The position numbers and the translations under genes were made by a program. The notes beneath the pieces are model-generated. The model was not told the origin of the DNA. It saw only the letters and a program-made list of their open reading frames with translations, and made no database searches. Positions 1,910-48,286 of a stretch of DNA of 48,286 nt are shown here, piece after piece (position 1 is the stretch's first letter; each line of letters opens with the position of its first letter). The stretch is from Planctomycetota bacterium. GTDB lineage: Bacteria; Planctomycetota; UBA1135; GCA-002686595. The stretch is taken from positions 1 through 48,286 of the forward strand of contig JANMRV010000232.1 in NCBI GenBank assembly GCA_031388685.1. The letters run 5' to 3'.

Positions 1910-1918
1910 GTTCCAGGC

Positions 1919-5356: not shown

Positions 5357-5360
5357 TCCC

Positions 5361-10967: not shown

Positions 10968-11077
10968 GGGGACCTCGGGGGAGAGTGCGGCTGAAGTTAG
11001 ACGGCGCCTAGCGCTTGCGGTTCCATCAGAACCGCTCGAGGCAAGGCTGGGCAGTGACAATCGAAGGATCGATGAGT

Positions 11078-17559: not shown

Positions 17560-17668
17560 CGCCCGTTTTCCGTCCGGGCGCCGGCCTGCTACACTCTTCG
17601 TCCACCGCGATCCGCAGCCAGCTGCGGGACGCCTTCCGCCGACCTGGCCCTCGCTCCTTCGAAACGAC

Positions 17669-18744: not shown

Positions 18745-18747
18745 GCC

Positions 18748-19668: not shown

Positions 19669-19693
19669 CCGGGACAAATCGTTTTCGAACGCC

Positions 19694-34364: not shown

Positions 34365-34498
34365 GCTGCTGTGCCGCCCCCCTGGGGCGGATCGCGACAA
34401 CGAACCCGAAGGAAGGCCTCCGGGGTGTCGCTGGGGGCGAAGAGTGTAGGTGCGCCTGCGGCTTGACCGCAACCGTGGAAGCCGCGCAGCCGCCTGGA

Positions 34499-35194: not shown

Positions 35195-35344
35195 GATGAA
35201 AAGAGCTTCGCGCAGCGCCGTCGCGGGGTCAAGGATTCATCCAGCGGGCCGCTCCAATGCTTGCGATTCCAAGGCCCGAGGTCTGCGTCGCGATACGATC
35301 CTGGCCCCGCCCGCCTCCAAAGAGCCCCGAACCGACCCACCCTC

Positions 35345-36205: not shown

Positions 36206-36232
36206 AACGCGCGCCGCAGCGCGAAGCAAAAC

Positions 36233-36475
36233 CTACCGGGCGAGGATCTTGCGCTGATTGGCGAGGATCGTCGCCTGGTTTTTTTTGATCGTCGCCTGGT
36301 TGGCGAGGATGCGATCCAGCTTCTTCTGGTTCGCGCGGATGGTCGCCTGGTTGGCGAGGATGGCTTTCTGATTGGTGAGGACGGCTGCCAGGGACGCGGG
36401 CGATGAACTGCTCTTCATGGCCGTAGTCTGCGAAAACTCCTGCGGGCCGGGAAGCACCCGCTCGAGTAGCCGCAT
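36233..36475 (-). CDS. Small (61-80 aa) heptad-repeat protein made of (L/I)ANQ(A/K)xI units; function unknown
   Basis: The sequence is ...AVLTNQKAILANQATIRANQKKLDRILANQATIKKNQATILANQRKILAR. The start is ATG 36475 (GGAAG upstream) or ATG 36418. There is no signal peptide. Coding is supported only by the repeat periodicity being in frame. Confidence 0.5.
   Translation of the reverse strand: MRLLERVLPGPQEFSQTTAMKSSSSPASLAAVLTNQKAILANQATIRANQKKLDRILANQATIKKNQATILANQRKILAR
36266..36362. repeat. In-frame 21-nt-periodic direct repeats plus a T8/A8 homopolymer inside the small heptad-repeat ORF
   Basis: GATCGTCGCCTGGTT occurs at 36266-36280 and again at 36287-36301, an offset of 21 nt. GTCGCCTGGTTGGCGAGGATG occurs at 36291-36311 and 36342-36362, an offset of 51 nt. 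A T8 run lies at 36279-36286. Confidence 0.75.
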
Positions 36476-36544: not shown

Positions 36545-37579
36545 CTAATTCTTCACGCCGATCAGATGGAAGAAGGGGTCGAGGTCGACGGAGTAGCTCT
36601 TGACCATTTCGGCGCGCCACTGGATGAACTCGAAATCGTCGACGGGGTAGTCCTCGAGGCTCTTTTCGATCGCGGCCCCGTTGTCCTTCCAGTTGCCCGT
36701 GATCGCCGGCAGGAGCTTGTCGACGCGCAACATCAACTGCTTGCCATCGTCGGCCTTGAGCGGCCCGGCGACCTTGCCCACGGGCGTGTTGAAGGCGACG
36801 CGCGAAAGTTCGGCGTTTTCGTTGCGAATCACCGTGATGAGCGCGCCGCCAGGTTCCTTTTCGCGATAGCGATGCAGCTCCTTGGCGAGCGAATCGAAGT
36901 CGCGGCCGGCGGCGAGCCCGACGTTGAAAGCATCCATGGCCTGCTGGTCGGCAAGTTCGACCATGCGCACGACGCAGCGCTCGCGGCCGCAGGCCCATGT
37001 GCGCACGACGCGCTCGGCGATCAGTTGAGCGATCGCATCGCGGCGCAATTGGCGGCGGTAGTACTCGGTGTCGACGCCCAGCTCCGTCTGCAGGTGCTTG
37101 GCGATCGAGATTCCGCGGCCCTGGCGCTCGAGGCTGTCGCCCAACACTTTCCACGCGGCTTCGAGACGCTCGTCGACCCTGCTCTGCGAGACTGCGATCT
37201 CCTGACGCTCGGCTTCGAGCAGAGCCAGGCGTTCGACGACCAGACGATCGAGGACCTCGCGCGAGACATCGCTCGAGCGCAACCAGATGCGCGCGAGGAA
37301 CGAGCGAATGTCGATCGGTTCGCCGGAAACCAGAGCGATGGCGAGGTCCTGGTCAGCAGCCACAGGCGCGGGCGCGCCGGCAGGCGCCGCGGGCGCTTGG
37401 GACTGTTGGCCCTCGACAGCGCTCTCGGCGCGCAGCGCTTCGCGAGTCGACGCGTCGGCGAGTGCCGCGTGCCCTGCGCTGAGGTTCGAGCGCGTCGTGC
37501 CGGCGCAGCCCGCAAGCAGGACGCACGACAGGACGCCGGTCGCCAGTGCACCGCGGAAGGGGAATCGACTCGTTTGCAT
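36545..37579 (-). CDS. SurA/PrsA-like lipoprotein with degenerate parvulin-type PPIase domain
   Basis: Within track ORF 36545..37753. From the ATG at 37579 the protein starts MQTSRFPFRGALATGVLSCVLLAGC (lipobox). It has a SurA_N-like helical region (VLDRLVVERLALLEAERQEI) and a parvulin-like segment (VRMVEL...AGRDFDSLAKEL...PGGALITV...FNTPVGKVAGPLKADDGKQLMLRV). It lies 11 nt downstream of the preceding gene. Confidence 0.55.
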   Translation of the reverse strand: MQTSRFPFRGALATGVLSCVLLAGCAGTTRSNLSAGHAALADASTREALRAESAVEGQQSQAPAAPAGAPAPVAADQDLAIALVSGEPIDIRSFLARIWLRSSDVSREVLDRLVVERLALLEAERQEIAVSQSRVDERLEAAWKVLGDSLERQGRGISIAKHLQTELGVDTEYYRRQLRRDAIAQLIAERVVRTWACGRERCVVRMVELADQQAMDAFNVGLAAGRDFDSLAKELHRYREKEPGGALITVIRNENAELSRVAFNTPVGKVAGPLKADDGKQLMLRVDKLLPAITGNWKDNGAAIEKSLEDYPVDDFEFIQWRAEMVKSYSVDLDPFFHLIGVKN

Positions 37580-37590
37580 TGATTTTGCGC

Positions 37591-39171
37591 TCACCAGAAG
37601 TTCACGCGGCGGATACGGCCGACGCGGTGGCACGAGGGACAGTCGACGACGACCAGACCCGCACTGTTCGCGCCTTGCCCGGGCTGCTGGCCTCCCGTGT
37701 TGGAGCGAGCGCTGCCGGTGTTGATCATCTCGCGCGTGCCGGTGCCGCCGCAATCAGGGCAATTGGAAAGCTCTTCCTTGACGATCCGGAAGTCGCCGCC
37801 GTTCTCGGCATAGTGCGCAAGCAGCCACTGGGCGCGAGCATACGAAGTCCAGCTACGCCAGAAGACTTCCTGCTCGCTCTCTTCGCCTTCCTTCGCACCC
37901 GCGTCGGCTTTCTTCTTCGCCACCATCTGTTGATTGAGGAGGTAACGTTTGATCTTGTCCTCGATCTTGGCGCGCTCGGCTTCGGCTCCGGTCTTCGGTG
38001 CCTCGGCGGGCTTGGCCTGATCCTTGCCGTACTCCTTCAGCGCGGCAGCGTCACCGAGCAGCCACGTGCCTTGACCGTACGATGCGCGGCGGAATCGTCC
38101 GCGCTTGCGCTCTTCCCAGAGCTTCTTGATCTCCTCAGGCTTGACGCTCGCACCCACGGCACGCTGCAGGTCCGCGGTCACGGCGGCGAGCAGTTCGTCC
38201 TTGAGCTGCTCGGAGATGTAAGCCAGCGAACTCTCGAGCGTTGCGCCATCCGCTTTCGCCTGTTTGTCGGCAAGCCGCTCGGCCCACTTGTTCCATCGTT
38301 CCGTGACCATCTCACGCAGGGCCGCGAGGCGCGATTTCTCGACTTGCTTCTTCTTGCGATCGACCTCGGTCCTGAGGGTCGAGTCGGGCCACTTCTGAAG
38401 AAATGCTTCCAGATCCCTCAGCGCGGCATCGTATTGCCCGCGGGCGCGCTTCGAGTCGACTGCGTAGAGATAGTCGAGCTGCGCCTGATTCGCGGCCTTT
38501 TCTTGCACGCGCAGCAGGGTCGGCTTGAGCGATCCATTGTCGAAACCCGGATCGATCATGGCTGCAGCCTTGTAGTGTTCGAGCGCGCGCGAGAAGTCGA
38601 AGATGCGCTCGCAGTACTTGGCCAGGTCAAGCTCGCTCTGCGCGCTCTTGGGGTCGAGCTTGTCCGCCTCGGCGCGGTACAGTTCCTCGCGCGTGAACAC
38701 GTCTAGGGCAGGCACGACCACACTGGTCACCGCCCCGCTGATGCGTCGCTTGGGAACCGGAACCAATCGCTCGGCGGTCTTGACGAAGATCTCGAGCTCG
38801 GTGCGGCTGACGATGCGGCCGACGATCTCGGTGCCGTCGTCGAGTTGCAGCCGGTCGGCTTCGACGGTCAGTTCGTCGCCGGAGTGATCGACATAGCCAA
38901 ACTCCTCGAGCATCGCGCCCGACTGGGTCGGGTCGATCTGCTTCCAGGGCATGCGCACGATGCCGCCGTTGTCCAGGCGCTGGAACGAGAGCCGTTCGGA
39001 GTCGTGGCCGAAGATGCGGCCCCACAGGGATCCGCCATCGGCGAGCTTCAGCAACATGACTTCGCCGGTCGCGCCGGCATCGTTTTCGCCATCCTGAGCC
39101 TCGCACGGCGTAGCGAAAACACTGAGCACGATGGACAGGATCGCGCACGGAATGAATCGAATGGGCTGCAT
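37591..39171 (-). CDS. Secreted helical/TPR-like protein with C-terminal DnaJ-type CxxCxGxG zinc finger; function unknown
   Basis: Within track ORF 37591..39789. From the ATG at 39171 the protein starts MQPIRFIPCAILSIVLSVFATPCEA/QD (Sec signal). It has a Lys/Glu-rich helical body and the C-terminus NCPDCGGTG...(28 aa Gly/Gln/Ser linker)...DCPSCHRVGRIRRVNFW. Its start overlaps the upstream stop (TGATG). Confidence 0.7.
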   Translation of the reverse strand: MQPIRFIPCAILSIVLSVFATPCEAQDGENDAGATGEVMLLKLADGGSLWGRIFGHDSERLSFQRLDNGGIVRMPWKQIDPTQSGAMLEEFGYVDHSGDELTVEADRLQLDDGTEIVGRIVSRTELEIFVKTAERLVPVPKRRISGAVTSVVVPALDVFTREELYRAEADKLDPKSAQSELDLAKYCERIFDFSRALEHYKAAAMIDPGFDNGSLKPTLLRVQEKAANQAQLDYLYAVDSKRARGQYDAALRDLEAFLQKWPDSTLRTEVDRKKKQVEKSRLAALREMVTERWNKWAERLADKQAKADGATLESSLAYISEQLKDELLAAVTADLQRAVGASVKPEEIKKLWEERKRGRFRRASYGQGTWLLGDAAALKEYGKDQAKPAEAPKTGAEAERAKIEDKIKRYLLNQQMVAKKKADAGAKEGEESEQEVFWRSWTSYARAQWLLAHYAENGGDFRIVKEELSNCPDCGGTGTREMINTGSARSNTGGQQPGQGANSAGLVVVDCPSCHRVGRIRRVNFW

Positions 39172-39653
39172 CACTTCTTCTCCACGAACTGACGCCGCAG
39201 GCGCTCCGAGAACGGTATTTCGCGCAGGCACAACGTCGTGAACTTCTTCTGTTTGCTCTCGCCGGCGCTCTTCCACTTGACGGTGACGTCGACGCGGTAC
39301 TCGAGCGCGCCGCCAGGATAGTCCTTCTGTGAAGGATCCGCCGTCGCCTTGGCCGAATAGGTGATGTCCGGGTTGCCAAAGAGCGGCCGATCGATGATGT
39401 CGACCGGCAGTCCGACCTTCACGCTGGAGCCATCGGCTTCGAGCGGAAACATCTGCTCCTCGAGGTCGGCGACCACGGCTTCGACCGCGGACGCGCCGTC
39501 GTTGCGCAGCGCGGCCGTGCGCGTCAGGGCAGCGCCAAAGGACAACAAACCCAGCACACAGGTCATGCCCAGCAGGAAAAGGCCCATGGCGATGACGACC
39601 TCGATGATCGTGAAGCCGGCTTGCCGGCTCGCTGTGCGAAGCGCGAGTTTCAC
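39171..39653 (-). CDS. Minor pseudopilin, GspI-like (prepilin-type N-terminal motif)
   Basis: Within track ORF 39171..40637. The GTG at 39653 overlaps the upstream stop (GTGA). The N-terminus is VKLALRTASRQAG/FTIIEVVIAMGLFLLGM with Glu at +5. The protein is 160 aa. The I-type assignment is tentative. Confidence 0.75.
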   Translation of the reverse strand: MKLALRTASRQAGFTIIEVVIAMGLFLLGMTCVLGLLSFGAALTRTAALRNDGASAVEAVVADLEEQMFPLEADGSSVKVGLPVDIIDRPLFGNPDITYSAKATADPSQKDYPGGALEYRVDVTVKWKSAGESKQKKFTTLCLREIPFSERLRRQFVEKK

Positions 39654-40771
39654 AGGTCCCAATCCTCCTGCGAGAGCCGCACCGGAACTTCGCGCCTGTA
39701 GGTCTCGCCGAAGTGGATGCGCGCGCCGCGCTCGTGATTGGCGGCGCGGGTGCCGCGCATGCCGCGCTGCACGGAAACGTTGCGGCCACCGGGCGTGCTG
39801 AGCTTCAACCATTCGCCGTCGATCTTGACGAAGGACACCGACGTCGTCGGCAGGCGCTTTTCGTCGTCGACCAGCATCGTGTTGGCGCCGAGCGCCAAGA
39901 ACTCTGCAAGCCGCGTGCGCTTCTGCGCCTCCTTCGGCCGTTCGAATTCGAGTTCGATCTTCACGCGCCGCGGCAGCAGCGCGCGCTGCTTGGCCTTCGG
40001 CATGCCCGCGCCCGGTTCGTTCCACACGTGCAGCAGCGCGTCGGGCCGTTTCTTGCGCCAGGCGTCCCAGGAGAAACACGAATCGCTCAACTGATCGCCC
40101 GCATGCCAGCCATGGCTCAGCGTGGTCATCTGAGTCGCGAACTCGAAGCCCAGCCACAACACGCCGCCGCTGACTTCGCTCAGCGCACCGGGCGTCGGTT
40201 CGCCGCCCTTCGAGAAGAAGCGCTCGTCGAAGTAGGAGACTTCCTTGCCCGGCACACGCGGCGCATTCGGGTCGTCGCGCGGCGTGGCCAGGCGCTCGCC
40301 GCGCAGCACCAGGCCTTCCGAGCGGCGGTCCTGTTCCTGCTTGCCCTTGTAGGCGGGCACGACGGCCCAGGCGACTTCGATCAGGCCCTGCCCTTGATTC
40401 GGGTCCTTTGAGCGGAAACGCAGACGCGCCAGCTCGGCCTCGGAAGCGTGACGCACGAGCCGCAGCCTGGGCCACAACGCATCGCCGGCGCCGTCGCCAT
40501 CGGTGTCGAAGGAAATCCACTCGGCCACAAGGTCGCCGCGCGCGCCGCCGTCCATCTGGACCAGATCGTTGGCCAGCAATTCGCCGAGCGCCGAGGATTC
40601 CTCGACGCGCGCGCGGCGCGTTTCGCTCTTGTCCCACACGCCGATGAAACCGCGCATCACGGCGAATACGGAAACCATCAGGAGCGCGAGCAGGCCGACG
40701 GCGATGACCAGTTCGATCACGGTCAAGCCGCGCCGTGACGAGCGGGTCGCGCGGATCCGAGCAGCGCTCAT
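39650..40771 (-). CDS. Minor pseudopilin, GspJ-like (enlarged, 373 aa)
   Basis: Within track ORF 39650..42223. The ATG at 40771 overlaps the upstream stop (ATGA). The N-terminus is MSAARIRATRSSRRG/LTVIELVIAVGLLALLMVSVFAV with Glu at +5, followed by a J-like helix ...RRARVEESSALGELLANDLVQM. Confidence 0.75.
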   Translation of the reverse strand: MSAARIRATRSSRRGLTVIELVIAVGLLALLMVSVFAVMRGFIGVWDKSETRRARVEESSALGELLANDLVQMDGGARGDLVAEWISFDTDGDGAGDALWPRLRLVRHASEAELARLRFRSKDPNQGQGLIEVAWAVVPAYKGKQEQDRRSEGLVLRGERLATPRDDPNAPRVPGKEVSYFDERFFSKGGEPTPGALSEVSGGVLWLGFEFATQMTTLSHGWHAGDQLSDSCFSWDAWRKKRPDALLHVWNEPGAGMPKAKQRALLPRRVKIELEFERPKEAQKRTRLAEFLALGANTMLVDDEKRLPTTSVSFVKIDGEWLKLSTPGGRNVSVQRGMRGTRAANHERGARIHFGETYRREVPVRLSQEDWDL

Positions 40772-43700
40772 TCGTCGACCCTCCGCAACGTGAGACCGGG
40801 CCCGAGGTACTCGACGCCGAACTGCGTCAGGCGCGGTGTGCGCTTCCAGCCGTGCGAAAGTCCGTTCGTGAAATCGAACGCGTTCGGCGCATAGCGCACG
40901 TAGACGCGCCATTCGAGGGCGTCGCGTTGAATGCCGATCGTGCGACCCGCTCCGTCCTTCAACCCCTGCTCGATTCGCGCCAGATTTTTGCTCAGGTCCG
41001 TGGAAGGTTCGTCGTCCCAAGCTGTCAGCGGGTTGGAACGCTGCAGCACTTCGATCTTCGTGCCCGGCGGTTCGTCGGCCTGGAAAAACACGTCGCGCCA
41101 GAAAGCATTGGGTTGATCGATCGAGAATCCGAAGTAGGCCAGTTCCGGCGCATCGGCGCGATCGGCCCAGCGATCCCAGTAGCGGAACGGGAAGAGGATC
41201 ACGGGTTCTCCGGCGGAATGCGCCGACGGTGAGGTGCCGAAGCGTCCGCGGAAAAGGCCGCCGCCATTGTCGTCCATGGCGCCGGGCTTCGAAGATCCGC
41301 GCGGCATCTCGAGCTGCGTGCCGGCGAGGTGCGTGTAGTGGATCAATTCGCCGCCGATCAGGACCGTGCCTTGGCTCGGAAAATCCGTGGCGTCCTCGAG
41401 TTGAATGATCGCCGAGCCGGGGCTGAGCGAACCCGCCAGCGTGGTCACGATGCGCGATTCGAGCCAGGTCGCCGTCTCGCCGATCTCGTGCGTCTCCTCC
41501 GTCGTGCCCAGCAGTCCGCGGCCGCTGCTGGCGATCGTGATCAGTCCGCTGCTCGAGTCGATCGAGTCGTAGCACAGGATTTCCGATCCGATGCGCAGCA
41601 AGCCGGCGTCCTTGGGCAGGTCGTCCAGGAAGATGCGCGTGTCGCCGAGCAGGCCGCGCGCGACGCGGATCACCTTCGGAAACGTGTAGAATCCCGACGA
41701 GCCCGCGGCGAGAGGCAGGCTCACCGTCATCTGTGCCGCCTGCGCCGCCTCGGCGTGCACAGTGCCCTCGCCGAAGTGCGGATTGCCGAAGGCGATCTCG
41801 TCGACCACAGCCGAGGGCATTCCGGAACCGTTGAGCGCGCGGCCGATCTCGACCTGCGTCGCCTCGCGCAGCCGCTCGCCCGAAGGGAAGAGCGTCAGAC
41901 GTGCGCGCAACCGGGTCTCGAACGCGCTGACATTGGGCAGGGAGGTGCCGGCGGCGATCGGCGCGCGCAATGCGGCATTGGCGGCGACGAAGATGTCGTT
42001 CAGGTTGCCGATTCCGTACTCCACGGCGCGGATCGGGATGCCGGCGACGGGGGTCATCGTGTTCGCACCCGGGATCCAGTCCGCTTCCACGTACTCGCGC
42101 GGCCGGTAGGAGCGCTGCACTTCGAGCGGCCAGCCTGGATCGCTCGGCAGCGCATCGACGAGGAAGGCCGCGTCGCCGTGACCGGGCTGTCCGCTGTTGA
42201 CGTCGCCGCCTTCGACGCGCCACACGGCGTGGACCTTCGTGTTCTTCTTGTGCGCGTGCGAATACGTGCCGAACACGCCGCGGAATTGCAGCGCCGTGCG
42301 AGCAGCGCGCGTGACCGGCGCGGAAAGATCCTCATCGGTGCCGACGTAAGGCAGCCACTGCGCCGGCACGTATCCGGGCGGGTTCTGCGCCGGCGGCGCG
42401 GCGGGTGGCGCAAACGAACTTTGGGCGCCTCCCCCATTCGTGCCGGGCGGCGCGAAAGGCGGAGGCGGAGGCGGAACCGGAGGCTGACCGGTGCCGCGCG
42501 GCGCGCCGATCACGATCTCGCGGCAGTGGGCCAAGGCCACGGGATCCGAACGCACGAGCTGCGTCTGTTCGATGCGGTCGTAGCGCACCCACTCGGTCAA
42601 CTCGGCCGCGCCCAACTCGGTGATCTGCGCGAACTCCGAGCGGCCGATATTGTTTCCCTGCGCCACTTGCGGAACCAGGAACGCATTCGCGCTCGCGCCG
42701 GCGTTGATCGAAATCGGCAGGACGAAGATCTTGCGATCGAGCTCGGTGTCGGGATCGACGCCGCCGAAGGTGATCTGCCAGTCGAGGATGAAGGCGTGCG
42801 GGCGTGTGTCGTTGTTCTCGCTGGGCAGCGCCGCGCGGCGATCGATGTACAGGACGTCGTTGGTCCAATTCGTGTAGTGAACGACTTCCGTGCCCCAGAT
42901 CGGCGAGTTGTTCAGCGTCACCGCGATCGTGCCCGGCGGCTGGCCCTGCACCGTGGCTGGGCCCAACTGCATGAGCAGCGCGTATCCACCAGTCTTCTGG
43001 AACGCGGCCATCATCGTCGCGGTCGTCATTGGCGACGGATCCGCCGGCAGCAGCTTCAAGCCCGTGATCTGGCTGGTGTAGCCCTCCATGCCCAGTCCGA
43101 GCGGAAAGACGAAATTCTGAATGCTGATCGGCTCGCCGGGATTGTTGGTGCCGTTGGATTCGAGCCCTGAGACATAACCGACCGCGAAACGGCCGATGTC
43201 CTCGAACAACGTGCCCTCACCGAATGGCGCGTTGCCCGCGAGCGGCAGGCTGTAGCCGTAGAGTTCGACCGGCGTGCCGGTCACATGGTTCTCGTTGACG
43301 GTGCCCTTTGCCTCATTCGTTCCCGGCTCAACGGGATTCGTTTGGGGCAGGCTGAATCTGTTTCGCGCCAGTCTTCCGCCGAAGCCGGCGTCCACACCGG
43401 AAACTTCGTGTTGCGCGACGAAGGTCGTCGCGTTCTGGCGTTTGTACTCGATCAATTCGTTGCCGATACGCGCGACACCGCGGTCGGGAAAACCCTCGCC
43501 GCTCTCGACCGTGAAGACCAGCGCGTCGACGCCGAAGGTCGAAGTCAGACGCGTCAATCCCGGCGTGCGCACGCCCAGCGCGCGGCCGTCGATCGAAAGC
43601 GAAATCTGATCCGGGCGATTGCCGCGCACGTCGATTTCGATGTGGCTCCATGTGTCCTGCGCGAGCCCGGGCCCCGTTCCCGCGGCGAGTTCGAAGCGCG

Positions 43701-45840
43701 CTTCGCCGAATTCCTTCAGCACACTGGCCGGGTGATCGCCCGGTCCGTCGATCACGCGCAGCACGAGGTCGGGTCCTTCGATCCCAAGCCAGACTCGATC
43801 GGTGTCGAGCGCGCCCTTGCCGAAGTCGACGAAGGTTCCATCGCCGATCTGACGCGGCCGGATCCAGAAGGACGCGCTCAAGCCGCGCGCCAATCTGCCG
43901 GGGCCCGGCGACCACTGCACCTTCTTGTCGTCGGGCAGATACGTGATCGGCTCGTCGGGCAGGTAGCGGCCTTCGAGATCGCGGGTCTCGTTGTCGAAGT
44001 GCAGCATCCGGCCGCTCGTGAAGGCGGTCTCCTCCACGCGCGAAGGCATCAGTTGAATCCAGGCCGTTTCCTCGCGCGAAGCGAAGACGTGCTGCGGATT
44101 CGGTACCTCGTCGGCGGCGACGACCGTGCGTCCGGGAACGTAGGGCTGGTCCTTCCAGGTTCCAAAGTGCGCGAACAAACGCGACGGCGGGACGGACGGA
44201 CCGTCGAAGCGCGAAGTCGCGTTCGGACCGCTCGCCCACAACGGCGCGTCGCTGGTGAGGCGGATCGCTTCCTCGAAGTCCTCCTGGCGTGCCCAGAGGG
44301 TCAACAAATCGTCCTGCGGAATGATCACTGCGACTTCCTCGCGCACGCCGCTCGAGCGCAGCACCCCCGAGGGCGCATTGACCGCGGCACGCGCGTGCAT
44401 CGCGTAGACGTCTCGAGAGACGAACGAAAGCGGCATCGTGGAATACGAGAGGCGCTCGTCGTTCGCGTTGAGAGCGTTCGCATACAGCGCGAGCGCATCG
44501 TCAGCGTCGATCAGGTTGCCGGTGGCGCTGGCCAGCACAGCAGGCGTCACCGGTGCATCCTTGGGCAGCGACTCGATTCCGGCCGCGGGCAGCACGACAC
44601 GTCGCAGGAAGTCCTCGAGGCCGAGCAGCGGCCGCGATTCGATCGCGAGCACCGCGAGCTTGCCTGCCTCGTCGCGCGTGATCCGACTCGAGCGGTTGAT
44701 GATCTGCAGGTTCAAGAACAGCGCTTCGAGCACCTCGACCGGAGCCACATTGACATTGACCGGGCGGCGCGCGAGCGGCGCGATCGTCGCGCGATAGCCG
44801 AGGTAATCCATGCGCACGGGATTGAAGAGCTTGATGCCGTTCCCATCCTGCAGCGCGAGCACGATCCCGAACTCGATCGTGCGCCCGTCCGTGATCATGA
44901 CCGTCGTGCCCGGATTGAAATTGCGGCGCTCGTTCACGCGCACCAGGCAATCCTCGCCCGCCTTCAGCGCGTTGGTGATGCGCACAGCGCGTTGCCATTG
45001 CGGCCCGGCGCGCACGCCTCCGTACACCGAACCGCGCTGCTCGAGTGCCGCGCCGAAATCCTGTCCGAGAACGCCGCTCAACGCGAGCGGCGCACTGTCG
45101 CGCACCTGCTCGATCGCATCGAAGCTGCGCAGTCCCTTCGAAGCGTCGGCGATGCGCCACATCGGTATCGCGAACGCGCGCTGATCGACCACCGCGAGAT
45201 TGATCGAGTGATCGAGCGCCGGACTCGGGCCGCAGCCGGTCCAGTTGCCGTCCTTGTCGACGTTGGCCGTCAGACCGCGTGTCAGGCCGGCGAACTTGCC
45301 GTCCTCGATCGAGGTGTAGCGCACGAGTTCCGCCCCGACCCACAGGAAGCCCTCGGGCTCGAATCCGAAGGTCGAGAGCACGCCGATCGCTTTCGCCTTG
45401 CCCTTGAGCGGCTCGGCGAGACGCGTCACGCAGCCCAGCATGTTGGCGAACATCTGCGGCGGCGCGCTGCCGACATCGATGCGGCCGGCGACATCGAAGG
45501 CGTCGACGTCCCACATGACGGCGCGCGGGTCGTGGTTGTTCCAGAAGCCGGGCTCGAGCGTGCTCGTGACCGTGAGCTCGTCCTGATCGTCCCAATACGG
45601 CGTGGCGTCGCGCGCGGGATGCGAGCCGCCGAGGTTGGCGCGCGCGTGCTTGATGCCAGCGTCGAGCGCGAGCCTGGTCTGCACCTTGTCGGACAACTGC
45701 GTGCTGGCCTTCGAAGCGTTGCGCGCGGTCATCAGGAACGGCGCGCACAGGATCAAGAGCGCGATCAGCACGAACAGCACGCTCAGCACCGCGAAGCCGC
45801 GGCGATCTGCGTGCCCACGATTCCATGCGCGGTACTTCAT
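40768..45840 (-). CDS. Giant (1690 aa) GspK-like minor pseudopilin with about 1200-aa extension
   Basis: The N-terminus is MKYRAWNRGHADRRG/FAVLSVLFVLIALLIL, hydrophobic like a pilin but without Glu at +5, as in GspK/PilX. GspK-like segments are WDVDAFDVAGRIDVGSAPPQMFANMLG and RRPVNVNVAPVEVLEALFLNL...ITRDEAGKLAVLAIESRPLLGLEDFLRRV. A Pro-rich linker PVPPPPPPFAPPGTNGGG lies at about 42421-42480. ATGA overlaps occur at both ends. Confidence 0.75.
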   Translation of the reverse strand: MKYRAWNRGHADRRGFAVLSVLFVLIALLILCAPFLMTARNASKASTQLSDKVQTRLALDAGIKHARANLGGSHPARDATPYWDDQDELTVTSTLEPGFWNNHDPRAVMWDVDAFDVAGRIDVGSAPPQMFANMLGCVTRLAEPLKGKAKAIGVLSTFGFEPEGFLWVGAELVRYTSIEDGKFAGLTRGLTANVDKDGNWTGCGPSPALDHSINLAVVDQRAFAIPMWRIADASKGLRSFDAIEQVRDSAPLALSGVLGQDFGAALEQRGSVYGGVRAGPQWQRAVRITNALKAGEDCLVRVNERRNFNPGTTVMITDGRTIEFGIVLALQDGNGIKLFNPVRMDYLGYRATIAPLARRPVNVNVAPVEVLEALFLNLQIINRSSRITRDEAGKLAVLAIESRPLLGLEDFLRRVVLPAAGIESLPKDAPVTPAVLASATGNLIDADDALALYANALNANDERLSYSTMPLSFVSRDVYAMHARAAVNAPSGVLRSSGVREEVAVIIPQDDLLTLWARQEDFEEAIRLTSDAPLWASGPNATSRFDGPSVPPSRLFAHFGTWKDQPYVPGRTVVAADEVPNPQHVFASREETAWIQLMPSRVEETAFTSGRMLHFDNETRDLEGRYLPDEPITYLPDDKKVQWSPGPGRLARGLSASFWIRPRQIGDGTFVDFGKGALDTDRVWLGIEGPDLVLRVIDGPGDHPASVLKEFGEARFELAAGTGPGLAQDTWSHIEIDVRGNRPDQISLSIDGRALGVRTPGLTRLTSTFGVDALVFTVESGEGFPDRGVARIGNELIEYKRQNATTFVAQHEVSGVDAGFGGRLARNRFSLPQTNPVEPGTNEAKGTVNENHVTGTPVELYGYSLPLAGNAPFGEGTLFEDIGRFAVGYVSGLESNGTNNPGEPISIQNFVFPLGLGMEGYTSQITGLKLLPADPSPMTTATMMAAFQKTGGYALLMQLGPATVQGQPPGTIAVTLNNSPIWGTEVVHYTNWTNDVLYIDRRAALPSENNDTRPHAFILDWQITFGGVDPDTELDRKIFVLPISINAGASANAFLVPQVAQGNNIGRSEFAQITELGAAELTEWVRYDRIEQTQLVRSDPVALAHCREIVIGAPRGTGQPPVPPPPPPFAPPGTNGGGAQSSFAPPAAPPAQNPPGYVPAQWLPYVGTDEDLSAPVTRAARTALQFRGVFGTYSHAHKKNTKVHAVWRVEGGDVNSGQPGHGDAAFLVDALPSDPGWPLEVQRSYRPREYVEADWIPGANTMTPVAGIPIRAVEYGIGNLNDIFVAANAALRAPIAAGTSLPNVSAFETRLRARLTLFPSGERLREATQVEIGRALNGSGMPSAVVDEIAFGNPHFGEGTVHAEAAQAAQMTVSLPLAAGSSGFYTFPKVIRVARGLLGDTRIFLDDLPKDAGLLRIGSEILCYDSIDSSSGLITIASSGRGLLGTTEETHEIGETATWLESRIVTTLAGSLSPGSAIIQLEDATDFPSQGTVLIGGELIHYTHLAGTQLEMPRGSSKPGAMDDNGGGLFRGRFGTSPSAHSAGEPVILFPFRYWDRWADRADAPELAYFGFSIDQPNAFWRDVFFQADEPPGTKIEVLQRSNPLTAWDDEPSTDLSKNLARIEQGLKDGAGRTIGIQRDALEWRVYVRYAPNAFDFTNGLSHGWKRTPRLTQFGVEYLGPGLTLRRVDE

Positions 45841-46850
45841 TCGACCGTCCCGTACACGTTGACGATCACGCGCGCCTTGGAGCCGTCCTCGTACTCCAGG
45901 CCGATCGAGAGCGGCGCGGAGAACAGCTCGCGATCGAGCGCGCCATCGGCGGAAAAAACGATTTCGCGCGGCACGTCGGACGCGAAGCTGACCGTCCTGG
46001 GCAAGACCGCCTTGCCGCTGTCGACCACGCCGTAAATCGAGAGCGCGTCGATCGCGCCGGGGAATGCCATGCGCGGGTCGCCGATCACGAGCGGCGCCTC
46101 GAGTTTCCAGACCGGATCGTCCGCCTGCGCGCGCGCGATTTCGACGCCGTCGAGCGCGAGCCGCAAGAGCCGGCGGTCATAGGTCACTTCGACGCGCATC
46201 CAGGATCCCGTTCGCCACACGCCCGGCGCGCTGTCGACCGCGACGATGCCGCCGCCGGAAACGACGCCGCTCGCGGAAGTGACCGCGGGCCGGAACCATG
46301 CGCGCAGGCTGCCATTGGCGCGGCACTCCAAACCCGCAACCAACCCGATGTCGAGCGCGCGGCCACCGTCCGAATTCTCGAGCTTGAGCGCGCACTGCAG
46401 CATGAAGCCCTCGCGCAGATCGAAAGTCGGATTCTCCTGCAGCGCAACTTCGCCGTGCGCTCCGGCCGGTGCGCCTGCGAAGGACAGTGCCTTGCCGAGA
46501 AATCCAGCGTCGATCAGCACGCCACCCATGCAGACTCCGTCGTCGCCCGAAGAGCCCTCGAGTCCAAGCGTTTCGAACTGCCAGGTGCCGAGTGCGTCCA
46601 TGCCGGCGGCAACGATTTCGCCGCTCGCCGGATCGAGGCGAAGGCGCGCCGGAGCGGAGCGCGCGACCGCGTTGTTGCGCGCCGAGCGCAGCATGTTCTG
46701 CACGAGTCCCAGCGCGGCGCGCTTGCCCGGATTCAGCGCGGTCAGCATCCCGACGCCGATCCCGAACAGCATCGCCATCAGGCCCATCACGACGATCAGC
46801 TCGATCAGCGTGAAGCCAGCCTTGCGTCCGGGTTGCAGGAAAGGTCTCAC
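45837..46850 (-). CDS. Pseudopilin (GspH-like N-terminus) fused to a LamG / concanavalin-like (Laminin_G_3 type) domain
   Basis: The N-terminus is MRPFLQPGRKAG/FTLIELIVVMGLMAMLF with Glu at +5. LamG-type hallmarks are GKALSFAG, GFMLQCALKL, WMRVEVTYDRRLLRLALDGVEIA and PLVIGD...FPGAIDALSIYG. Confidence 0.8.
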   Translation of the reverse strand: MRPFLQPGRKAGFTLIELIVVMGLMAMLFGIGVGMLTALNPGKRAALGLVQNMLRSARNNAVARSAPARLRLDPASGEIVAAGMDALGTWQFETLGLEGSSGDDGVCMGGVLIDAGFLGKALSFAGAPAGAHGEVALQENPTFDLREGFMLQCALKLENSDGGRALDIGLVAGLECRANGSLRAWFRPAVTSASGVVSGGGIVAVDSAPGVWRTGSWMRVEVTYDRRLLRLALDGVEIARAQADDPVWKLEAPLVIGDPRMAFPGAIDALSIYGVVDSGKAVLPRTVSFASDVPREIVFSADGALDRELFSAPLSIGLEYEDGSKARVIVNVYGTVE

Positions 46851-46854
46851 CGCA

Positions 46855-47496
46855 TCACTTCTTGAAATTCGAGATGTCGTCCGCGGTGCCGAACCTGCCG
46901 TCGATGCCGGCTGAAAACAATTGGAAGCTGCTGGGCTCCTCGTAGCGGCCGGTCGTCGAATTCTTCAGCGCGCGCAGCGTGGCCTCGTTCTCCTCGCCGG
47001 TCTCCGTGTCGACGAAGATGTAGCGGAACTCGCGCTCGTAGTCCGAAGCGCGGATGTAGACGATCGGGTTGCCCCACGGATCGGCCATCTCGAGCAGGTC
47101 CTGGGTCTCGAAACCCTTGGGCCGCTTGGAGAGCGCGTCGCGATCGGTGTTGCACAGATATTCTGCCTTGCCGAGCGTCGCGTATCCGGGCGCGCCCTCC
47201 GCGCACAGCGCCAGGTACAGGCACTCCGAGCCGACGTTGGTCGCGTCCGGCGCCGTACCCAGGTCGCTTGGCAACTGCGAGGGCGGATACTCGCCGTGTT
47301 CGTCGGAGTGTTCGCCCAGCGCCGTGCCCAGTTGCGCGAGCCGATTCCTGGCGACGCCGGCCTTGACCGCATCCTCACCCTGCATGAGGCTCGAGACCAG
47401 CACTGCGATCAGGATCGCGAGGATCATGAGCACGGCGAGCAGCTCGATCAGCGTGAAGCCGGCGCGTGTCGAAGATCGGTGGTGAAATTGCCTCAT
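46855..47496 (-). CDS. gspG: Type II secretion system major pseudopilin GspG-like
   Basis: Within track ORF 46855..47748. From the ATG at 47496 the N-terminus is MRQFHHRSSTRAG/FTLIELLAVLMILAILIAVLV with Glu at +5. T2SS-G C-terminal motifs are DPWGNPIVY and FQLFSAGIDGRFGTADDI. Confidence 0.85.
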   Translation of the reverse strand: MRQFHHRSSTRAGFTLIELLAVLMILAILIAVLVSSLMQGEDAVKAGVARNRLAQLGTALGEHSDEHGEYPPSQLPSDLGTAPDATNVGSECLYLALCAEGAPGYATLGKAEYLCNTDRDALSKRPKGFETQDLLEMADPWGNPIVYIRASDYEREFRYIFVDTETGEENEATLRALKNSTTGRYEEPSSFQLFSAGIDGRFGTADDISNFKK

Positions 47497-47516
47497 CGGC
47501 CGCTGCTCCATGGCGC

Positions 47517-48286
47517 TCAGGGCGCGCGAGACTTGACGATCTGGACGTTGTCGATCGTGATGTCCACGGGTTGACCGCTGTCGCCCCAGGCCATCAGGCC
47601 GACGCACACATCGCCCGCGGAGGCGATCGAGCGCAGCGAGAATCGATCCGCGACGGGAATGCCGTCGACGCTGATGCGGCCGATCGAATCGGAGCCTTCG
47701 CCGATGCGCTCGATGCGCAGGCGCACGGGCTTGTCGAGCGGCCACCACGGAATACCGCCTACCGGCGCGATGTCGACGCGTTCAGGTTCGGCGGTGGCGC
47801 GGTCCATCAAGAGCACCTGCAATCCGCCCTCGGGGTGACGCTCGACGGCGATCCAGCTCGTCGGCGCCGCGTTGCCGCGGCTGCCTTGCTTCTCGCGCGT
47901 CATGAACATGCCGACGTGGGCGGAAGTCACGCTCGCCACGGTCACGTCCATCTCGATCGAAACGAAGTCCTTCGAATGGTAGCGGCGCAACAGGCGCGCG
48001 CGCCCGTCGGTCTGCTTGATGGATCCGCGCAGGTGCATGGCATTGTCGCCGAGCGAAAAGGTCGCACCGGCGGCTTCTTCCACGTCCCACTGGTTCGAAC
48101 CGGCGTTGCCGCTGCGGTCGAAATTGTCTTCCCAGGCTTCCTTGGCGACGTGGTCGCCGATGCGCTTGATCTGGGCCAGCGTGAAGACGCGCCAGGCATC
48201 TTTTTCCGGCAATTTTCGCCGTGCGTCGTCGAGCGCGCGGAACAGTTCGATCGCGCGACCAAAGTCGCCCTTGCGATAGGCGCACC
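47517..48286 (-). CDS. TPR-containing protein with C-terminal concanavalin/LamG-like beta-sandwich (partial; continues past window end)
   Basis: Track ORF 47517..48212 begins at a TTG, but the frame stays open to 48286 (..CAYRKGDFGRAIELFRALDDARRKLPEKDAW.., a TPR-like helix pair). The C-terminal 200 aa are beta-rich and end VDITIDNVQIVK. The gene lies 20 nt upstream of the gspG-like gene. Confidence 0.6.
   Translation of the reverse strand, partial: CAYRKGDFGRAIELFRALDDARRKLPEKDAWRVFTLAQIKRIGDHVAKEAWEDNFDRSGNAGSNQWDVEEAAGATFSLGDNAMHLRGSIKQTDGRARLLRRYHSKDFVSIEMDVTVASVTSAHVGMFMTREKQGSRGNAAPTSWIAVERHPEGGLQVLLMDRATAEPERVDIAPVGGIPWWPLDKPVRLRIERIGEGSDSIGRISVDGIPVADRFSLRSIASAGDVCVGLMAWGDSGQPVDITIDNVQIVKSRAP

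What the first reader, a model, noticed from the sequence alone, without database searches (positions are those of the whole stretch)
36545..48286. Atypical, tightly overlapped pseudopilin operon (G - H/LamG - giant K - J - I) with non-canonical passengers and no assembly machinery in view
Seen in the sequence:
- Five consecutive minus-strand ORFs carry prepilin-type N-termini: G/FTLIELL, G/FTLIELI, G/FAVLSVL (no Glu+5), G/LTVIEL and G/FTIIEV.
- Junctions are H/K ATGA, K/J ATGA, J/I GTGA and I/next TGATG. The other gaps are 4-20 nt.
- The operon continues into a signal-peptide zinc-finger protein and a SurA-like lipoprotein. It is preceded by a TPR/beta-sandwich protein.

Established knowledge: canonical gsp operons run G-H-I-J-K, with small proteins of about 120-330 aa, next to GspC/D/E/F/L/M/O.

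What differs here: the minor pseudopilins are in K-J-I order, K is about 5 times normal size, H carries a lectin-like domain, and no ATPase, platform protein, secretin or peptidase is within 11 kb downstream.

Inference: this may be a specialised pseudopilus or pilus-tip module, for adhesion or substrate capture, rather than a standard T2SS.
Basis: partly seen in the sequence, partly recalled or inferred. Interest (0 to 1): 0.8.

Follow-up and report, generated by a model that had tools for sequence, protein, structure and literature searches.

The report
Planctomycete pseudopilin operon with giant tip subunit
This is the filament-subunit half of a pilus-like (type IV filament) machine found, in the same gene order, in every relative sampled from a deep branch of Planctomycetota (the Saltatorellus clade); its cap subunit is about five times normal size and carries lectin-like domains, an unstudied variant of a design already known from cyanobacteria, Thermus and Caulobacter.

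Summary
Five consecutive minus-strand genes (46855-47511, 45837-46850, 40768-45840, 39650-40771, 39171-39653) carry prepilin-type N-termini. They are joined by 4-5 nt gaps or ATGA/GTGA/TGATG overlaps. A secreted TPR/zinc-finger protein and a PPIase-like lipoprotein follow.

G is a full-length GspG homologue. J is GspJ-like. K is GspK-like: it has no Glu+5, and orthologues pass the Pfam T2SSK threshold. The H and I labels are tentative.

K (1690 aa) models confidently as a pilin-like module with inserted small beta-barrels, followed by laminin-G jelly-rolls.

"No assembly machinery" is only partly true. The window is a whole contig that ends inside the operon. In the related genomes long enough to show it, the same 11-gene block starts with an FHA membrane protein, a PilM-PilN fusion, a small bitopic protein and the TPR protein. 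No ATPase, platform protein, secretin or peptidase lies within about 10 kb in any of them, so these must act in trans.

The block sits among housekeeping genes and persists down to 28% K identity.

Best reading: a clade-wide type IV filament whose tip displays lectin-like domains for adhesion or capture. Giant K/PilX-type tip pilins are already known (HpsA, ComZ, CpaL), so this is a new variant, not a new kind.

The parts
47517..48284 (-). 3' end (255 codons) of a bitopic TPR protein with a C-terminal beta-sandwich. The gene runs off the contig end. Orthologues are ~890-935 aa with an N-terminal TM helix.
   Evidence: The fragment is 55% identical to L001 5444-8251 residues 682-929. The orthologue has TPR Pfam hits and a TM helix at residues 3-21. 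The C-terminus is only weakly like the LamG domain of H (hhalign 48%).
46855..47511 (-). G: GspG-type major pseudopilin, 218 aa, with a ~60-70 aa insertion relative to E. coli GspG.
   Evidence: Pfam N_methyl and T2SSG hits. NCBIfam gspG E=6e-13. tblastn with E. coli GspG residues 4-138 gives E=1.7e-8. hhalign gives 99.6% probability, E=1.6e-23, over 137 columns.
45837..46850 (-). H: modular pseudopilin, 337 aa, made of a prepilin N-terminus plus a laminin-G/ConA-like domain. The 'GspH' label is tentative.
   Evidence: N_methyl E=1e-5 and Laminin_G_3 E=3e-7 at residues 201-276. NCBIfam gspH E=5e-4 on residues 11-80 only. hhalign is ambiguous between GspG and GspH and covers the helix only.
40768..45840 (-). 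K: giant GspK/PilX-family pseudopilin, 1690 aa. It has a pilin-like module (aa 1 to ~600) with inserted small beta-barrels and a helical HhH region, then LamG jelly-roll(s), further beta domains, a Pro-rich linker (aa ~1115-1157) and a conserved C-terminal domain.
   Evidence: G(-1) is present in 225 of 226 homologues and +5 is never Glu. Matches to the NCBIfam GspK model are weak. Pfam T2SSK passes its cut-off in orthologues P0022, P0040 and P0118. AF2 models reach pLDDT 85.8 and 83.5. Foldseek finds LG/LNS domains. Homologues fall into 475 clusters, and full-length ones are 1590-1850 aa.
44581..44769 (-). K aa 358-420, the 'RRPVNVNVAPVEVLEALFLNLQ...SRPLLGLEDFLRRV' segment. This is the GspK signature (T2SSK/HhH) region.
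   Evidence: Orthologous positions hit PF03934 at 25-28 bits against a cut-off of 24.2, and hit NCBIfam GspK model positions 206-249 in P0111. The window protein itself does not reach the threshold.
43471..44043 (-). K aa ~600-790: laminin-G/ConA-like jelly-roll.
   Evidence: Orthologues have Laminin_G_3 hits at ~635-780. Foldseek matches neurexin LNS, laminin LG4-5, Gas6, agrin and SHBG LG domains and the neurotoxin HC lectin-like domain.
39650..40771 (-). J: GspJ-like pseudopilin, 373 aa, with a C-terminal small beta-barrel module shared with K.
   Evidence: N_methyl hit. NCBIfam gspJ E=5e-4. hhalign best match is GspJ at 91% over 65 columns. The PDB profile search finds T. thermophilus pilin TTHA1219. 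The C-terminal module is 90-94% hhalign-similar to the K barrels.
39171..39653 (-). I: small pseudopilin, 160 aa. The 'GspI' label is tentative.
   Evidence: N_methyl hit. NCBIfam XpsI E=7e-7 and Verru_Chthon B E=8e-5, both far below their cut-offs. hhalign is ambiguous between GspJ, GspI and GspH. G13, F14, T15 and E18 are conserved.
37591..39171 (-). Sec-exported TPR protein, 526 aa, with a C-terminal DnaJ-type CxxCxGxG...CxxC zinc finger. Inferred to be a periplasmic folding or holdase factor.
   Evidence: Sequence. TPR_14 hit. The orthologue in L083 has a faint DnaJ_CXXCXGXG hit. It is present in every related locus that reaches this position.
36545..37579 (-). Lipoprotein with SurA-N-like and parvulin-type PPIase-like regions, 344 aa. 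Inferred to be a periplasmic chaperone.
   Evidence: The lipobox LLAGC is visible in the sequence. SurA_N_3 and Rotamase_2 hits are weak. The L002 orthologue passes the Rotamase cut-off. It is conserved in the block.
36233..36475 (-). Small ORF with 'LANQxxI' repeats, possibly the last gene of the transcript. A terminator-like hairpin follows at 36208-36223.
   Evidence: Translation. It is conserved only in the nearest relatives L072 and L003, directly after the PPIase gene. Hairpin. Membership in the system is uncertain.

Best explanation
The window holds the distal two-thirds of an 11-gene, translationally coupled operon. The operon encodes the filament subunits and the inner-membrane alignment subcomplex of a type IV filament machine, with T2SS-like subunits and a PilM/PilN-like platform.

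Shown:
- A GspG-type major subunit, four further prepilin-type subunits, and a K subunit that lacks Glu+5.
- The full block in relatives is FHA-TM protein, PilM-PilN fusion, small bitopic protein, TPR protein, G, H, K, J, I, zinc-finger protein, PPIase.
- It sits in the same core-genome position in every related locus sampled that is long enough to show it.

Inferred from established knowledge of T2SS and T4P tip complexes:
- I, J and K form the initiation/tip complex with K at the apex, and H links it to the G polymer.
- The tip therefore displays about 1100 residues of K's laminin-G-like and small-barrel domains, plus the LamG domain of H, as a ligand-binding head. Carbohydrate or surface binding for adhesion or capture is the most likely role.
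- K is built like CpaL, HpsA or ComZ, as a pilin module interrupted by a very large excursion. Its conserved C-terminal domain returns to dock on the pilin module.
- The secreted zinc-finger/TPR protein and the PPIase lipoprotein are dedicated periplasmic folding factors for the large beta-rich subunits.
- The FHA protein links assembly to Ser/Thr-kinase signalling.
- The ATPase, platform protein, prepilin peptidase and secretin are supplied in trans. In Saltatorellus ferox the only reported set is the T4P locus Poly30_38940-39200.
For: - Prepilin motifs and gene junctions.
- G is a full-length GspG homologue.
- J matches GspJ and K matches GspK best.
- T2SSK domain in K orthologues.
- K has G(-1) in 225 of 226 homologues and no Glu+5 in any.
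- AF2 of K 1-600 gives a 60-residue N-terminal helix plus pilin-like strands (108-116, 478-505) around a large insertion, at pLDDT 85.8.
- AF2 of K 561-1690 is almost all beta, at pLDDT 83.5. It has LG/LNS-type jelly-rolls.
- H has a LamG domain.
- The PilM-like protein matches M. xanthus PilM (9e-20) and, after its TM helix, PilN (1.5e-3).
- The block order is identical wherever the related loci are long enough to show it, and it holds at 28-29% K identity.
- There are no GspE/F/D/O hits in 1.64 Mb of related loci.
- Mean-field DCA on 243 K sequences recovers the modelled hairpins. It also gives two couplings between the pilin module and the C-terminal domain (534-1568, 597-1668) above the maximum of 10 control windows.
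- K's C-terminus is conserved to the last residue, yet has low pLDDT when modelled without the pilin module.
- Precedents.
- A separate T4P locus exists, and pilV/W/X/Y1 have 'no clear prediction' in cultured relatives.
Against: - No experiment bears on this locus.
- Foldseek found no global match of the K N-terminal model to GspK. hhalign probability to E. coli GspK is only 19-32%, on the N-terminal ~100 residues.
- The window's own K does not reach the Pfam T2SSK threshold.
- The H and I assignments are not specific.
- The small bitopic protein shows no PilO/GspM similarity.
- The coevolution signal is modest (Meff 194). It does not resolve a terminal beta-strand insertion, because those pairs fall within noise.
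- The trans-acting motor was not located. I could not scan any whole genome.
- LamG domains bind many ligand types, so a carbohydrate-binding role is a guess.
Confidence: 0.5

Rival explanations
1. This is not a separate machine. H, K, J and I are the missing core minor pilins of the clade's single T4aP machine, with K acting as a PilX plus PilY1-like single chain. They prime a specialised filament on the shared PilB/PilC/PilQ apparatus, as distinct minor-pilin sets do in cyanobacteria.
For: - The Saltatorellota preprint found PilA/B/C/D/T/U/M/O/Q in one locus but 'no clear prediction' for pilV, pilW, pilX and pilY1 in all three strains.
- No E/F/D/O gene accompanies the block in any genome sampled.
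- The PilM-like protein resembles T4aP PilM/PilN rather than GspL.
- Cyanobacteria use alternative minor-pilin sets, including giant HpsA-like PilX, on one machine.
Against: - The block has its own GspG-type polymerising subunit, homologous over its full length, and its own PilM-PilN fusion.
- The T4P locus already has PilM and PilO.
- The preprint's gene list is not exhaustive. It did not list this block's PilM_2-domain protein.
Confidence: 0.25
2. This is a conventional type II secretion pseudopilus. A short periplasmic G polymer pushes exoproteins through a secretin. K's extra domains work in the periplasm, in substrate loading or gating, and are never surface-exposed.
For: - G is a true GspG homologue with the DPWGNP motif region.
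- The five-pseudopilin set with a Glu5-less K is the T2SS hallmark.
- The T2SSK domain is found in K orthologues.
- The block is conserved in the core genome, as expected of a housekeeping secretion route.
Against: - No GspC, D, E, F or O gene lies in cis in any of the related loci.
- The platform protein matches PilM/PilN rather than GspL.
- A ~180-kDa cap with several lectin-type domains, and a LamG on H, have no counterpart in characterised T2SS.
- The gene order is G-H-K-J-I.
Confidence: 0.15
3. The block does not build a filament. Its proteins use prepilin-type anchors to build a periplasm-spanning or envelope-organising scaffold, tied to the unusual, plastic cell envelope of this clade.
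For: - The block is present in every related locus sampled, strictly syntenic, and sits next to ScpB, RsmE, FtsY and an O-antigen-ligase-like gene.
- It has an FHA regulator and dedicated periplasmic chaperones.
- The clade is known for shapeshifting.
Against: - Every recognisable component belongs to type IV filament families.
- Glu+5 is conserved in the polymerising subunits and absent only from K. This is the pattern expected for a capped polymer.
- Nothing positive supports a scaffold role.
Confidence: 0.05

Closest known systems
Cyanobacterial HpsA / 'PilX-EPS' with HpsB-D pseudopilins (hps locus of Nostoc punctiforme; preprint 10.64898/2026.02.12.705559)
   Same: Both have a very large (>1280 aa) PilX/GspK-family tip pilin encoded beside small pseudopilins. 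Both have a bulky insertion inside the pilin fold before the last strand. Neither has a PilY1. In both, the motor is encoded elsewhere.
   Different: K gives no sequence match to the NCBIfam Hps models. The inserted domains here are LamG jelly-rolls and small barrels, not a beta-solenoid. This block also carries a GspG-type major subunit and its own PilM-PilN platform, and it comes from a different phylum.
T2SS pseudopilus tip complex GspH-I-J-K (e.g. E. coli gspG-K; Pseudomonas XcpU-X)
   Same: Both have a GspG homologue, five prepilin-type subunits, a K without Glu5 that carries the T2SSK/HhH region, and overlapping genes.
   Different: The order here is G-H-K-J-I. K is 5x larger, H has a LamG domain and J is about 2x larger. 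No GspC/D/E/F/O gene lies in cis in any genome sampled. The platform is PilM/PilN-like.
Large tip-located pilin-like proteins: Caulobacter CpaL/TadG (~600 aa), Thermus ComZ, Vibrio MshQ (~1200 aa) and PilY1/PilC (PMC13533445, PMC6561018)
   Same: These share the concept of a bulky functional domain held at the filament tip through a PilK-type pilin sheet. In CpaL the extreme C-terminus returns to the N-terminal pilin-like domain. Here, coevolution suggests that K's C-terminal domain contacts its pilin module.
   Different: No sequence or global fold match to any of them was found. K is far larger than CpaL or ComZ. Unlike PilY1/MshQ, the adhesin-like part and the pilin are one chain. Terminal-strand insertion was not demonstrated.
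Modular type IV pilins of Streptococcus sanguinis (PilB with a vWA module; the PilA-PilC minor-pilin complex that binds glycans; PMC9934059, 10.1101/2021.01.27.428410)
   Same: Both graft a functional module onto a pilin. In S. sanguinis a complex of minor pilins binds glycans. H here is a prepilin N-terminus plus a LamG/ConA-like domain. That PilC's module is a ConA-like lectin is from my own recollection and was not checked here.
   Different: The S. sanguinis pili are Gram-positive T4P. There is no detectable homology beyond the domain classes. Ligand binding was not tested here.
Verru_Chthon cassette A-D (NCBIfam TIGR02600/02598/02599/02596; Verrucomicrobia)
   Same: It is a catalogued but uncharacterised PVC-group cassette: a ~1300-aa protein A with a GspK-like N-terminus plus three small prepilin-type proteins. 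There are weak N-terminal hits of I to B, J to C, H to D and distant K orthologues to A.
   Different: All scores are far below the family cut-offs (for example 12-13 bits against 332 for A). The matches cover only the N-terminal helix. No paper in the library mentions the cassette.

Membership tests
Type II secretion system (Gsp) | GspG-type major pseudopilin | tested here: met
   hhalign gives 99.6% probability, E=1.6e-23, over 137 of 145 GspG positions. tblastn E=1.7e-8. Pfam T2SSG scores 21.1 bits against a cut-off of 21.
Type II secretion system (Gsp) | Minor pseudopilins H, I, J and K with prepilin motifs, and K lacking Glu+5 and carrying the T2SSK domain | tested here: inconclusive
   The motifs are present and K lacks Glu5 in all 243 homologues. 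J and K match GspJ and GspK best. T2SSK passes its cut-off in orthologues but not in the window protein. H and I are not specifically assignable.
Type II secretion system (Gsp) | GspE ATPase, GspF platform, GspD secretin, GspC and GspO peptidase encoded with the pseudopilins | tested here: not met
   There are no Pfam hits in the 48-kb contig. tblastn with E. coli GspC/D/E/F/L/M/O finds nothing in the window or in 1.64 Mb of related loci. Whole genomes could not be scanned.
Type II secretion system (Gsp) | Canonical gene order G-H-I-J-K | tested here: not met
   The order is G-H-K-J-I in the window and in every related locus that covers these genes.
Type IVa pilus (minor-pilin/PilY1 operon plus PilMNOPQ) | PilM actin-like protein and PilN | tested here: met
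   This is met in relatives only, because the window's contig ends before these genes. The profile matches PilM 3JC8 (9e-20) and 2YCH (4e-18), and PilN 3JC8_N (1.5e-3), as a single fused 571-aa protein.
Type IVa pilus (minor-pilin/PilY1 operon plus PilMNOPQ) | PilY1/PilC beta-propeller adhesin and a T4a-type major pilin in the locus | tested here: not met
   No Neisseria_PilC or Pilin Pfam hit on any of the eight proteins. The polymerising subunit is GspG-type.
HpsA-like / PilX-EPS giant minor pilins (cyanobacteria) | Match to the HpsA family models, and a beta-solenoid inserted in the pilin fold | tested here: not met
   K and five orthologues give no NCBIfam Hps hit at E<=1. The models show LamG jelly-rolls and small barrels, and Foldseek finds LG/LNS domains rather than solenoids. 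The architecture is analogous, but membership is not supported.
Verru_Chthon cassette | Scores above the NCBIfam cut-offs for proteins A, B, C and D | tested here: not met
   B scores 22.9 against 51.4, C 13.2 against 256.5, D 17.3 against 70. A scores 12-13 against 332.3, in distant orthologues only.
Modular pilins (pilin module plus grafted functional module) | Class III signal peptide, a pilin module and an additional folded domain | tested here: met
   H has N_methyl plus Laminin_G_3. K has a prepilin-like N-terminus, a pilin-like helix and sheet in the AF2 model, and LamG and other domains.
PilK-family cis/trans terminal beta-strand addition (Ellison et al. 2026) | The extreme C-terminal strand completes the pilin-module beta-sheet | tested here: inconclusive
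   The C-terminal domain couples to the pilin module (534-1568 and 597-1668 above the control maximum). The last-strand pairs (507-1680, 502-1684) are within noise. The full-length protein exceeds the structure tool's 1200-aa limit.

The most novel reading that the evidence does not exclude
The block could be a third, lineage-defining kind of type IV filament machine, neither a T2SS nor a T4aP. Its cap would be a single-chain fusion of a PilK-type pilin with a PilY1/MshQ-sized adhesin that closes on itself through its own C-terminus. It would have dedicated periplasmic chaperones and FHA/Ser-Thr-kinase control. It would underlie the peculiar surface behaviours of the Saltatorellus clade: trunk or pseudopodium-like extensions, cell-cell contact or fusion, tissue-like colonies, or macromolecule or prey capture.
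Probability: 0.15. Interest if true: 0.8.

Novelty: new variant of a known kind. Interest (0 to 1): 0.5.

Why it matters
- **A testable gap.** Type IV filaments need a minor-pilin tip complex to start assembly. In the Saltatorellus clade, noted for shapeshifting, no minor pilins had been identified. This block supplies a candidate set, conserved in every related locus sampled, and a concrete target for the genetic tools now appearing for Planctomycetota.
- **Convergent design.** The cap pilin absorbs the adhesin here as in cyanobacterial HpsA/PilX, Thermus ComZ and Caulobacter CpaL. This suggests the design has arisen repeatedly with different inserted domains, here laminin-G jelly-rolls and phage-tail-like small barrels.
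- **Annotation.** About 475 protein clusters are now labelled 'hypothetical protein' or, misleadingly, 'PulG' or 'PilX'. These can be given a better annotation.

Tried and rejected
- **Exact look-up of K.** Not on record as an encoding contig.
- **Full-length K profile against PDB sequences.** No hit at E<=1.
- **Foldseek of K 1-600 against PDB.** It returned only ~80-residue barrel matches to phage tail proteins, with no GspK, ComZ or PilY1.
- **hhalign of the K family against E. coli GspK.** It aligned only the N-terminal ~100 residues, at 19-32% probability.
- **The 278-aa bitopic protein as PilO/GspM.** PDB profile and Pfam scans of 25 orthologues gave nothing. The PilO/GspM role stays a guess from position and topology.
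- **I-family profile against PDB.** It gave only generic pilin-helix hits.
- **Verru_Chthon cassette and HpsA families.** I considered filing the block under them and rejected both on score.
- **A LamG-like C-terminus on the TPR protein.** Only 48% hhalign probability, so not claimed.
- **Coevolution test for C-terminal strand insertion.** The specific strand pairs are within noise. Only a domain-level contact exceeds the controls.
- **Mobile or accessory island.** Rejected, because the flanks are syntenic housekeeping genes down to 28% K identity.
- **Promoter scan.** It found nothing, and the tool does not cover non-sigma-70 promoters.

Full report
**1. What is in the window**

On the minus strand, 48284 to 36545, there is a run of eight tightly packed genes:
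- The last 255 codons of a TPR/beta-sandwich protein that runs off the contig end (47517-48284).
- G (46855-47511, 218 aa).
- H (45837-46850, 337 aa).
- K (40768-45840, 1690 aa).
- J (39650-40771, 373 aa).
- I (39171-39653, 160 aa).
- A signal-peptide TPR protein ending in CPDCGGTG...CPSC (37591-39171, 526 aa).
- A lipoprotein with weak SurA-N and parvulin hits (36545-37579, 344 aa).

The G[FL][TS]xxE prepilin motif occurs four times in all six frames of the 48-kb window, and all four are at the starts of G, H, J and I. K has the same Gly(-1) plus hydrophobic helix, but Ser at +5. Pfam N_methyl passes its threshold for G, H, J and I, and H also has Laminin_G_3 above threshold.

**2. Which pseudopilin is which**

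I built profiles from 64-79 orthologues and compared them with E. coli GspG to GspK.
- G is a full-length GspG homologue (99.6% probability, E=1.6e-23, 137 columns). tblastn with E. coli GspG also finds it.
- J matches GspJ best (91%, 65 columns).
- K matches GspK best, but weakly (32%, ~100 N-terminal columns).
- H and I align only through the N-terminal helix and cannot be told apart from other pseudopilins. Their letters are provisional, resting on weak NCBIfam best hits to gspH and XpsI.

Three further results strengthen the GspK identity of K:
- Gly(-1) is present in 225 of 226 homologues, and position +5 is never Glu in the 243 aligned sequences.
- Several orthologues pass the Pfam T2SSK gathering score at the segment that corresponds to window K 358-420, 'RRPVNVNVAPVEVLEALF...'.
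- One orthologue also matches NCBIfam GspK model positions 206-249 there.

**3. Anatomy of the giant K**

AlphaFold2 with a 38-sequence alignment gave confident models of both halves.

K 1-600 (pLDDT 85.8, pTM 0.83) has these elements:
- a 60-residue N-terminal helix;
- pilin-like strands at 108-116 and 478-505;
- between them, a large insertion made of two small beta-barrels (138-220, 286-356) and a helical region that contains the T2SSK-like segment.

K 561-1690 (pLDDT 83.5, pTM 0.80) is almost entirely beta. It has one disordered Pro-rich linker at about aa 1115-1157.

Foldseek results:
- The C-terminal part matched only laminin-G/LNS-type jelly-rolls (neurexin, laminin LG4-5, Gas6, agrin, SHBG) and the lectin-like half of clostridial neurotoxin receptor-binding domains. 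This agrees with Laminin_G_3 hits at ~635-780 in orthologues.
- The N-terminal model matched nothing globally. Its small barrels resemble the N-terminal anchor domains of phage tailspikes, tail fibres and baseplate proteins.

Profile-profile comparison shows that this ~55-80-residue barrel is a repeat. It occurs at least four times in K and once at the C-terminus of J, with 90-99% probabilities.

**4. Does K fold back on itself?**

Recent work shows that the last beta-strand of the PilK-family sheet is supplied in one of two ways. GspK and the ~600-aa CpaL supply it in cis. The C-terminus of PilY1/PilC or MshQ supplies it in trans. Cyanobacterial PilX/HpsA carry their bulky insert just before the last strand.

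K's C-terminus is conserved to the final residue (V-L-R-R/S-V-E-R). It nevertheless has low confidence when modelled without the pilin module.

I ran a mean-field DCA on 243 K sequences (Meff 194).
- It recovered the modelled hairpins (482-499, 483-504, 109-488, 537-595).
- It gave two couplings between the pilin module and the C-terminal domain, 534-1568 and 597-1668, above the maximum seen in ten control windows.
- The pairs that would show insertion of the very last strand are within noise.

I therefore infer, with modest support, that the C-terminal domain docks on the pilin module. Strand insertion remains untested.

**5. The window cuts the operon**

The window is the whole contig. K has about 475 homologous clusters at 50% identity. 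Every full-length member is 1590-1850 aa, down to 28% identity.

Seventy-nine loci from GTDB species representatives, plus metagenome contigs, show one invariant block:
- FHA-TM protein (~680 aa)
- PilM_2-domain protein (~570 aa)
- a ~270-aa bitopic protein
- the TPR protein (~900 aa)
- G, H, K, J, I
- the zinc-finger protein
- the PPIase

The block is flanked by a divergent RsmE gene and by ScpB. The most distant members (28-29% identity) keep the block, and they keep the wider neighbourhood too: a SurA_N-like gene, an O-antigen-ligase-like gene, FtsY, NusB, RibH and an RND pump. Most of those genes are also in this window. This is a vertically inherited core-genome locus, not an island.

Nearly all the hits are uncultured Planctomycetota. 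One is the cultured Saltatorellus ferox Poly30. The ~66% G+C of the window fits that clade.

**6. Machinery**

- The PilM_2 protein matches M. xanthus and T. thermophilus PilM over residues 3-337. After a TM helix, it matches PilN. It is a PilM-PilN fusion with GspL-like architecture.
- The 270-aa protein has the position and topology of PilO/GspM, but no detectable similarity.
- The FHA protein has a cytoplasmic FHA domain, one TM helix and a ~500-aa periplasmic part.
- tblastn with E. coli GspC, D, E, F, L, M and O found nothing in the window or in 1.64 Mb of related loci.

The alignment subcomplex is present but lies beyond the contig end. The ATPase, platform protein, secretin and peptidase are truly absent from the locus in every genome sampled.

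The Saltatorellota preprint reports a separate T4P locus in all three cultured strains, with PilA-like, PilB, PilC, PilD, PilT/U, PilM, PilO and PilQ. It reports 'no clear prediction' for pilV, pilW, pilX and pilY1. It does not mention this block.

**7. How it most likely works**

By analogy with solved T2SS and T4P tip complexes, I, J and K would nucleate assembly with the Glu5-less K at the apex. H would bridge to the G polymer. This rests on established knowledge plus the family assignments above, and it is inference for this locus.

The tip would then display about 1100 residues of lectin-type and small-barrel domains, plus the LamG domain of H. That points to ligand binding, meaning adhesion or capture, rather than a bare piston. 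The two 'passengers' are best read as periplasmic folding factors for these large beta-rich subunits. The FHA protein is best read as a link to Ser/Thr-kinase control. The motor must be supplied in trans.

The rivals are:
- the block is simply the missing minor-pilin set of the clade's T4aP (0.25);
- it is a conventional T2SS pseudopilus (0.15);
- it is a non-filament envelope scaffold (0.05).

None of these is excluded, because no whole genome could be scanned and no experiment exists.

**8. Comparison with known systems and novelty**

The closest precedents are:
- cyanobacterial HpsA-like 'PilX-EPS', >1280 aa, encoded beside HpsB-D pseudopilins, with the motor elsewhere;
- Thermus ComZ, and Caulobacter CpaL;
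- the modular pilins of S. sanguinis;
- the uncharacterised Verru_Chthon cassette of Verrucomicrobia, whose 1296-position protein A model has a GspK-like N-terminus.

The block fails the membership tests for the Hps and Verru_Chthon families. It also lacks defining T2SS features: E/F/D/O in cis, and the canonical gene order.

It is best described as a new variant of a known kind. It is a planctomycetal type IV filament module with a single-chain giant K-type cap built from different inserted domains. It has its own PilM-PilN platform, an FHA protein and chaperones, and it is conserved in every related locus sampled. Source annotations call K 'hypothetical protein', or occasionally 'PulG' or 'PilX'.

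**9. Verdict**

Interest is moderate (0.5). The locus is a clean, testable candidate for the missing tip complex of an unusual bacterial clade, and another example of the cap pilin absorbing the adhesin. The principle itself is already in the literature.

Noticed in passing
window 39650-39886 (J aa 295-373); K aa 136-222, ~755-830, 1401-1470 and 1460-1560 (within 40768-45840): A ~55-80-residue small beta-barrel module (motif [IV]G.E[LIW][IV].Y...RG..GT.A..H..G..V) occurs once in J and at least four times in K, with hhalign probabilities of 90-99%. By Foldseek it resembles the N-terminal anchor domains of phage tailspikes, tail fibres and baseplate proteins. By HMM it resembles repeats in the phage Chi tail-tip protein 8VJH_A. 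It may be a protein-docking module.
   Followed up: partly
window 36233-36475 (-), hairpin 36208-36223 (-): A small ORF encodes a protein made of 'LANQxxI(K/R)' repeats. It is conserved (67-74% aa) only in the two nearest relatives (L072, L003), directly after the PPIase gene. A terminator-like hairpin follows it. It may be a lineage-specific last gene of the operon.
   Followed up: partly
window 34463-36205 (+): A DUF2911 lipoprotein-like gene on the opposite strand sits between the end of the operon and ScpB (34499-35194, -). In L001, ScpB follows the PPIase gene directly, and no DUF2911 gene appears in that interval in L001 or L002.
   Followed up: no
window 9165-11060 (-) and 11162-12991 (-): Two large adjacent ORFs (631 and 609 aa) have coding-type GC3 and no Pfam hit at E<=0.001.
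   Followed up: no
window 383-9125 (+): An RND efflux operon has a HlyD-type adaptor followed by two tandem AcrB-family genes of 1145 and 1254 aa. An RND (ACR_tran) gene also lies at the edge of the syntenic neighbourhood in the distant relative L085.
   Followed up: no
window 13121-16882 (-) and 16891-17559 (+): A 1253-aa Ser/Thr kinase fused to WD40 propellers lies next to a divergent ECF-type sigma factor. It could in principle feed the FHA protein of the pilus block. There is no evidence for this link.
   Followed up: no
window 47517-48116 (TPR protein C-terminal ~200 aa): The C-terminal beta-sandwich of the TPR protein has no Pfam hit. It shows only a weak profile similarity to the LamG domain of H (hhalign 48%, E=1.8e-4). 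It might be a third lectin-like module in the system.
   Followed up: partly
L001-L086; window 17543-21838 and 34499-35194: The whole neighbourhood is syntenic across relatives down to 28% K identity: RsmE, the block, ScpB, a SurA_N-like gene, an O-antigen-ligase/TPR gene, FtsY, NusB and RibH. Gene order in this clade is unusually stable around the locus.
   Followed up: partly
L030 (JBLIMI010000007.1) and L079 (JBLIHL010000350.1): Two GTDB records that carry the block are labelled 'Candidatus Paceibacteria bacterium' and 'Paracoccaceae bacterium'. Given the otherwise exclusive planctomycetal distribution, these are probably mis-binned contigs.
   Followed up: no
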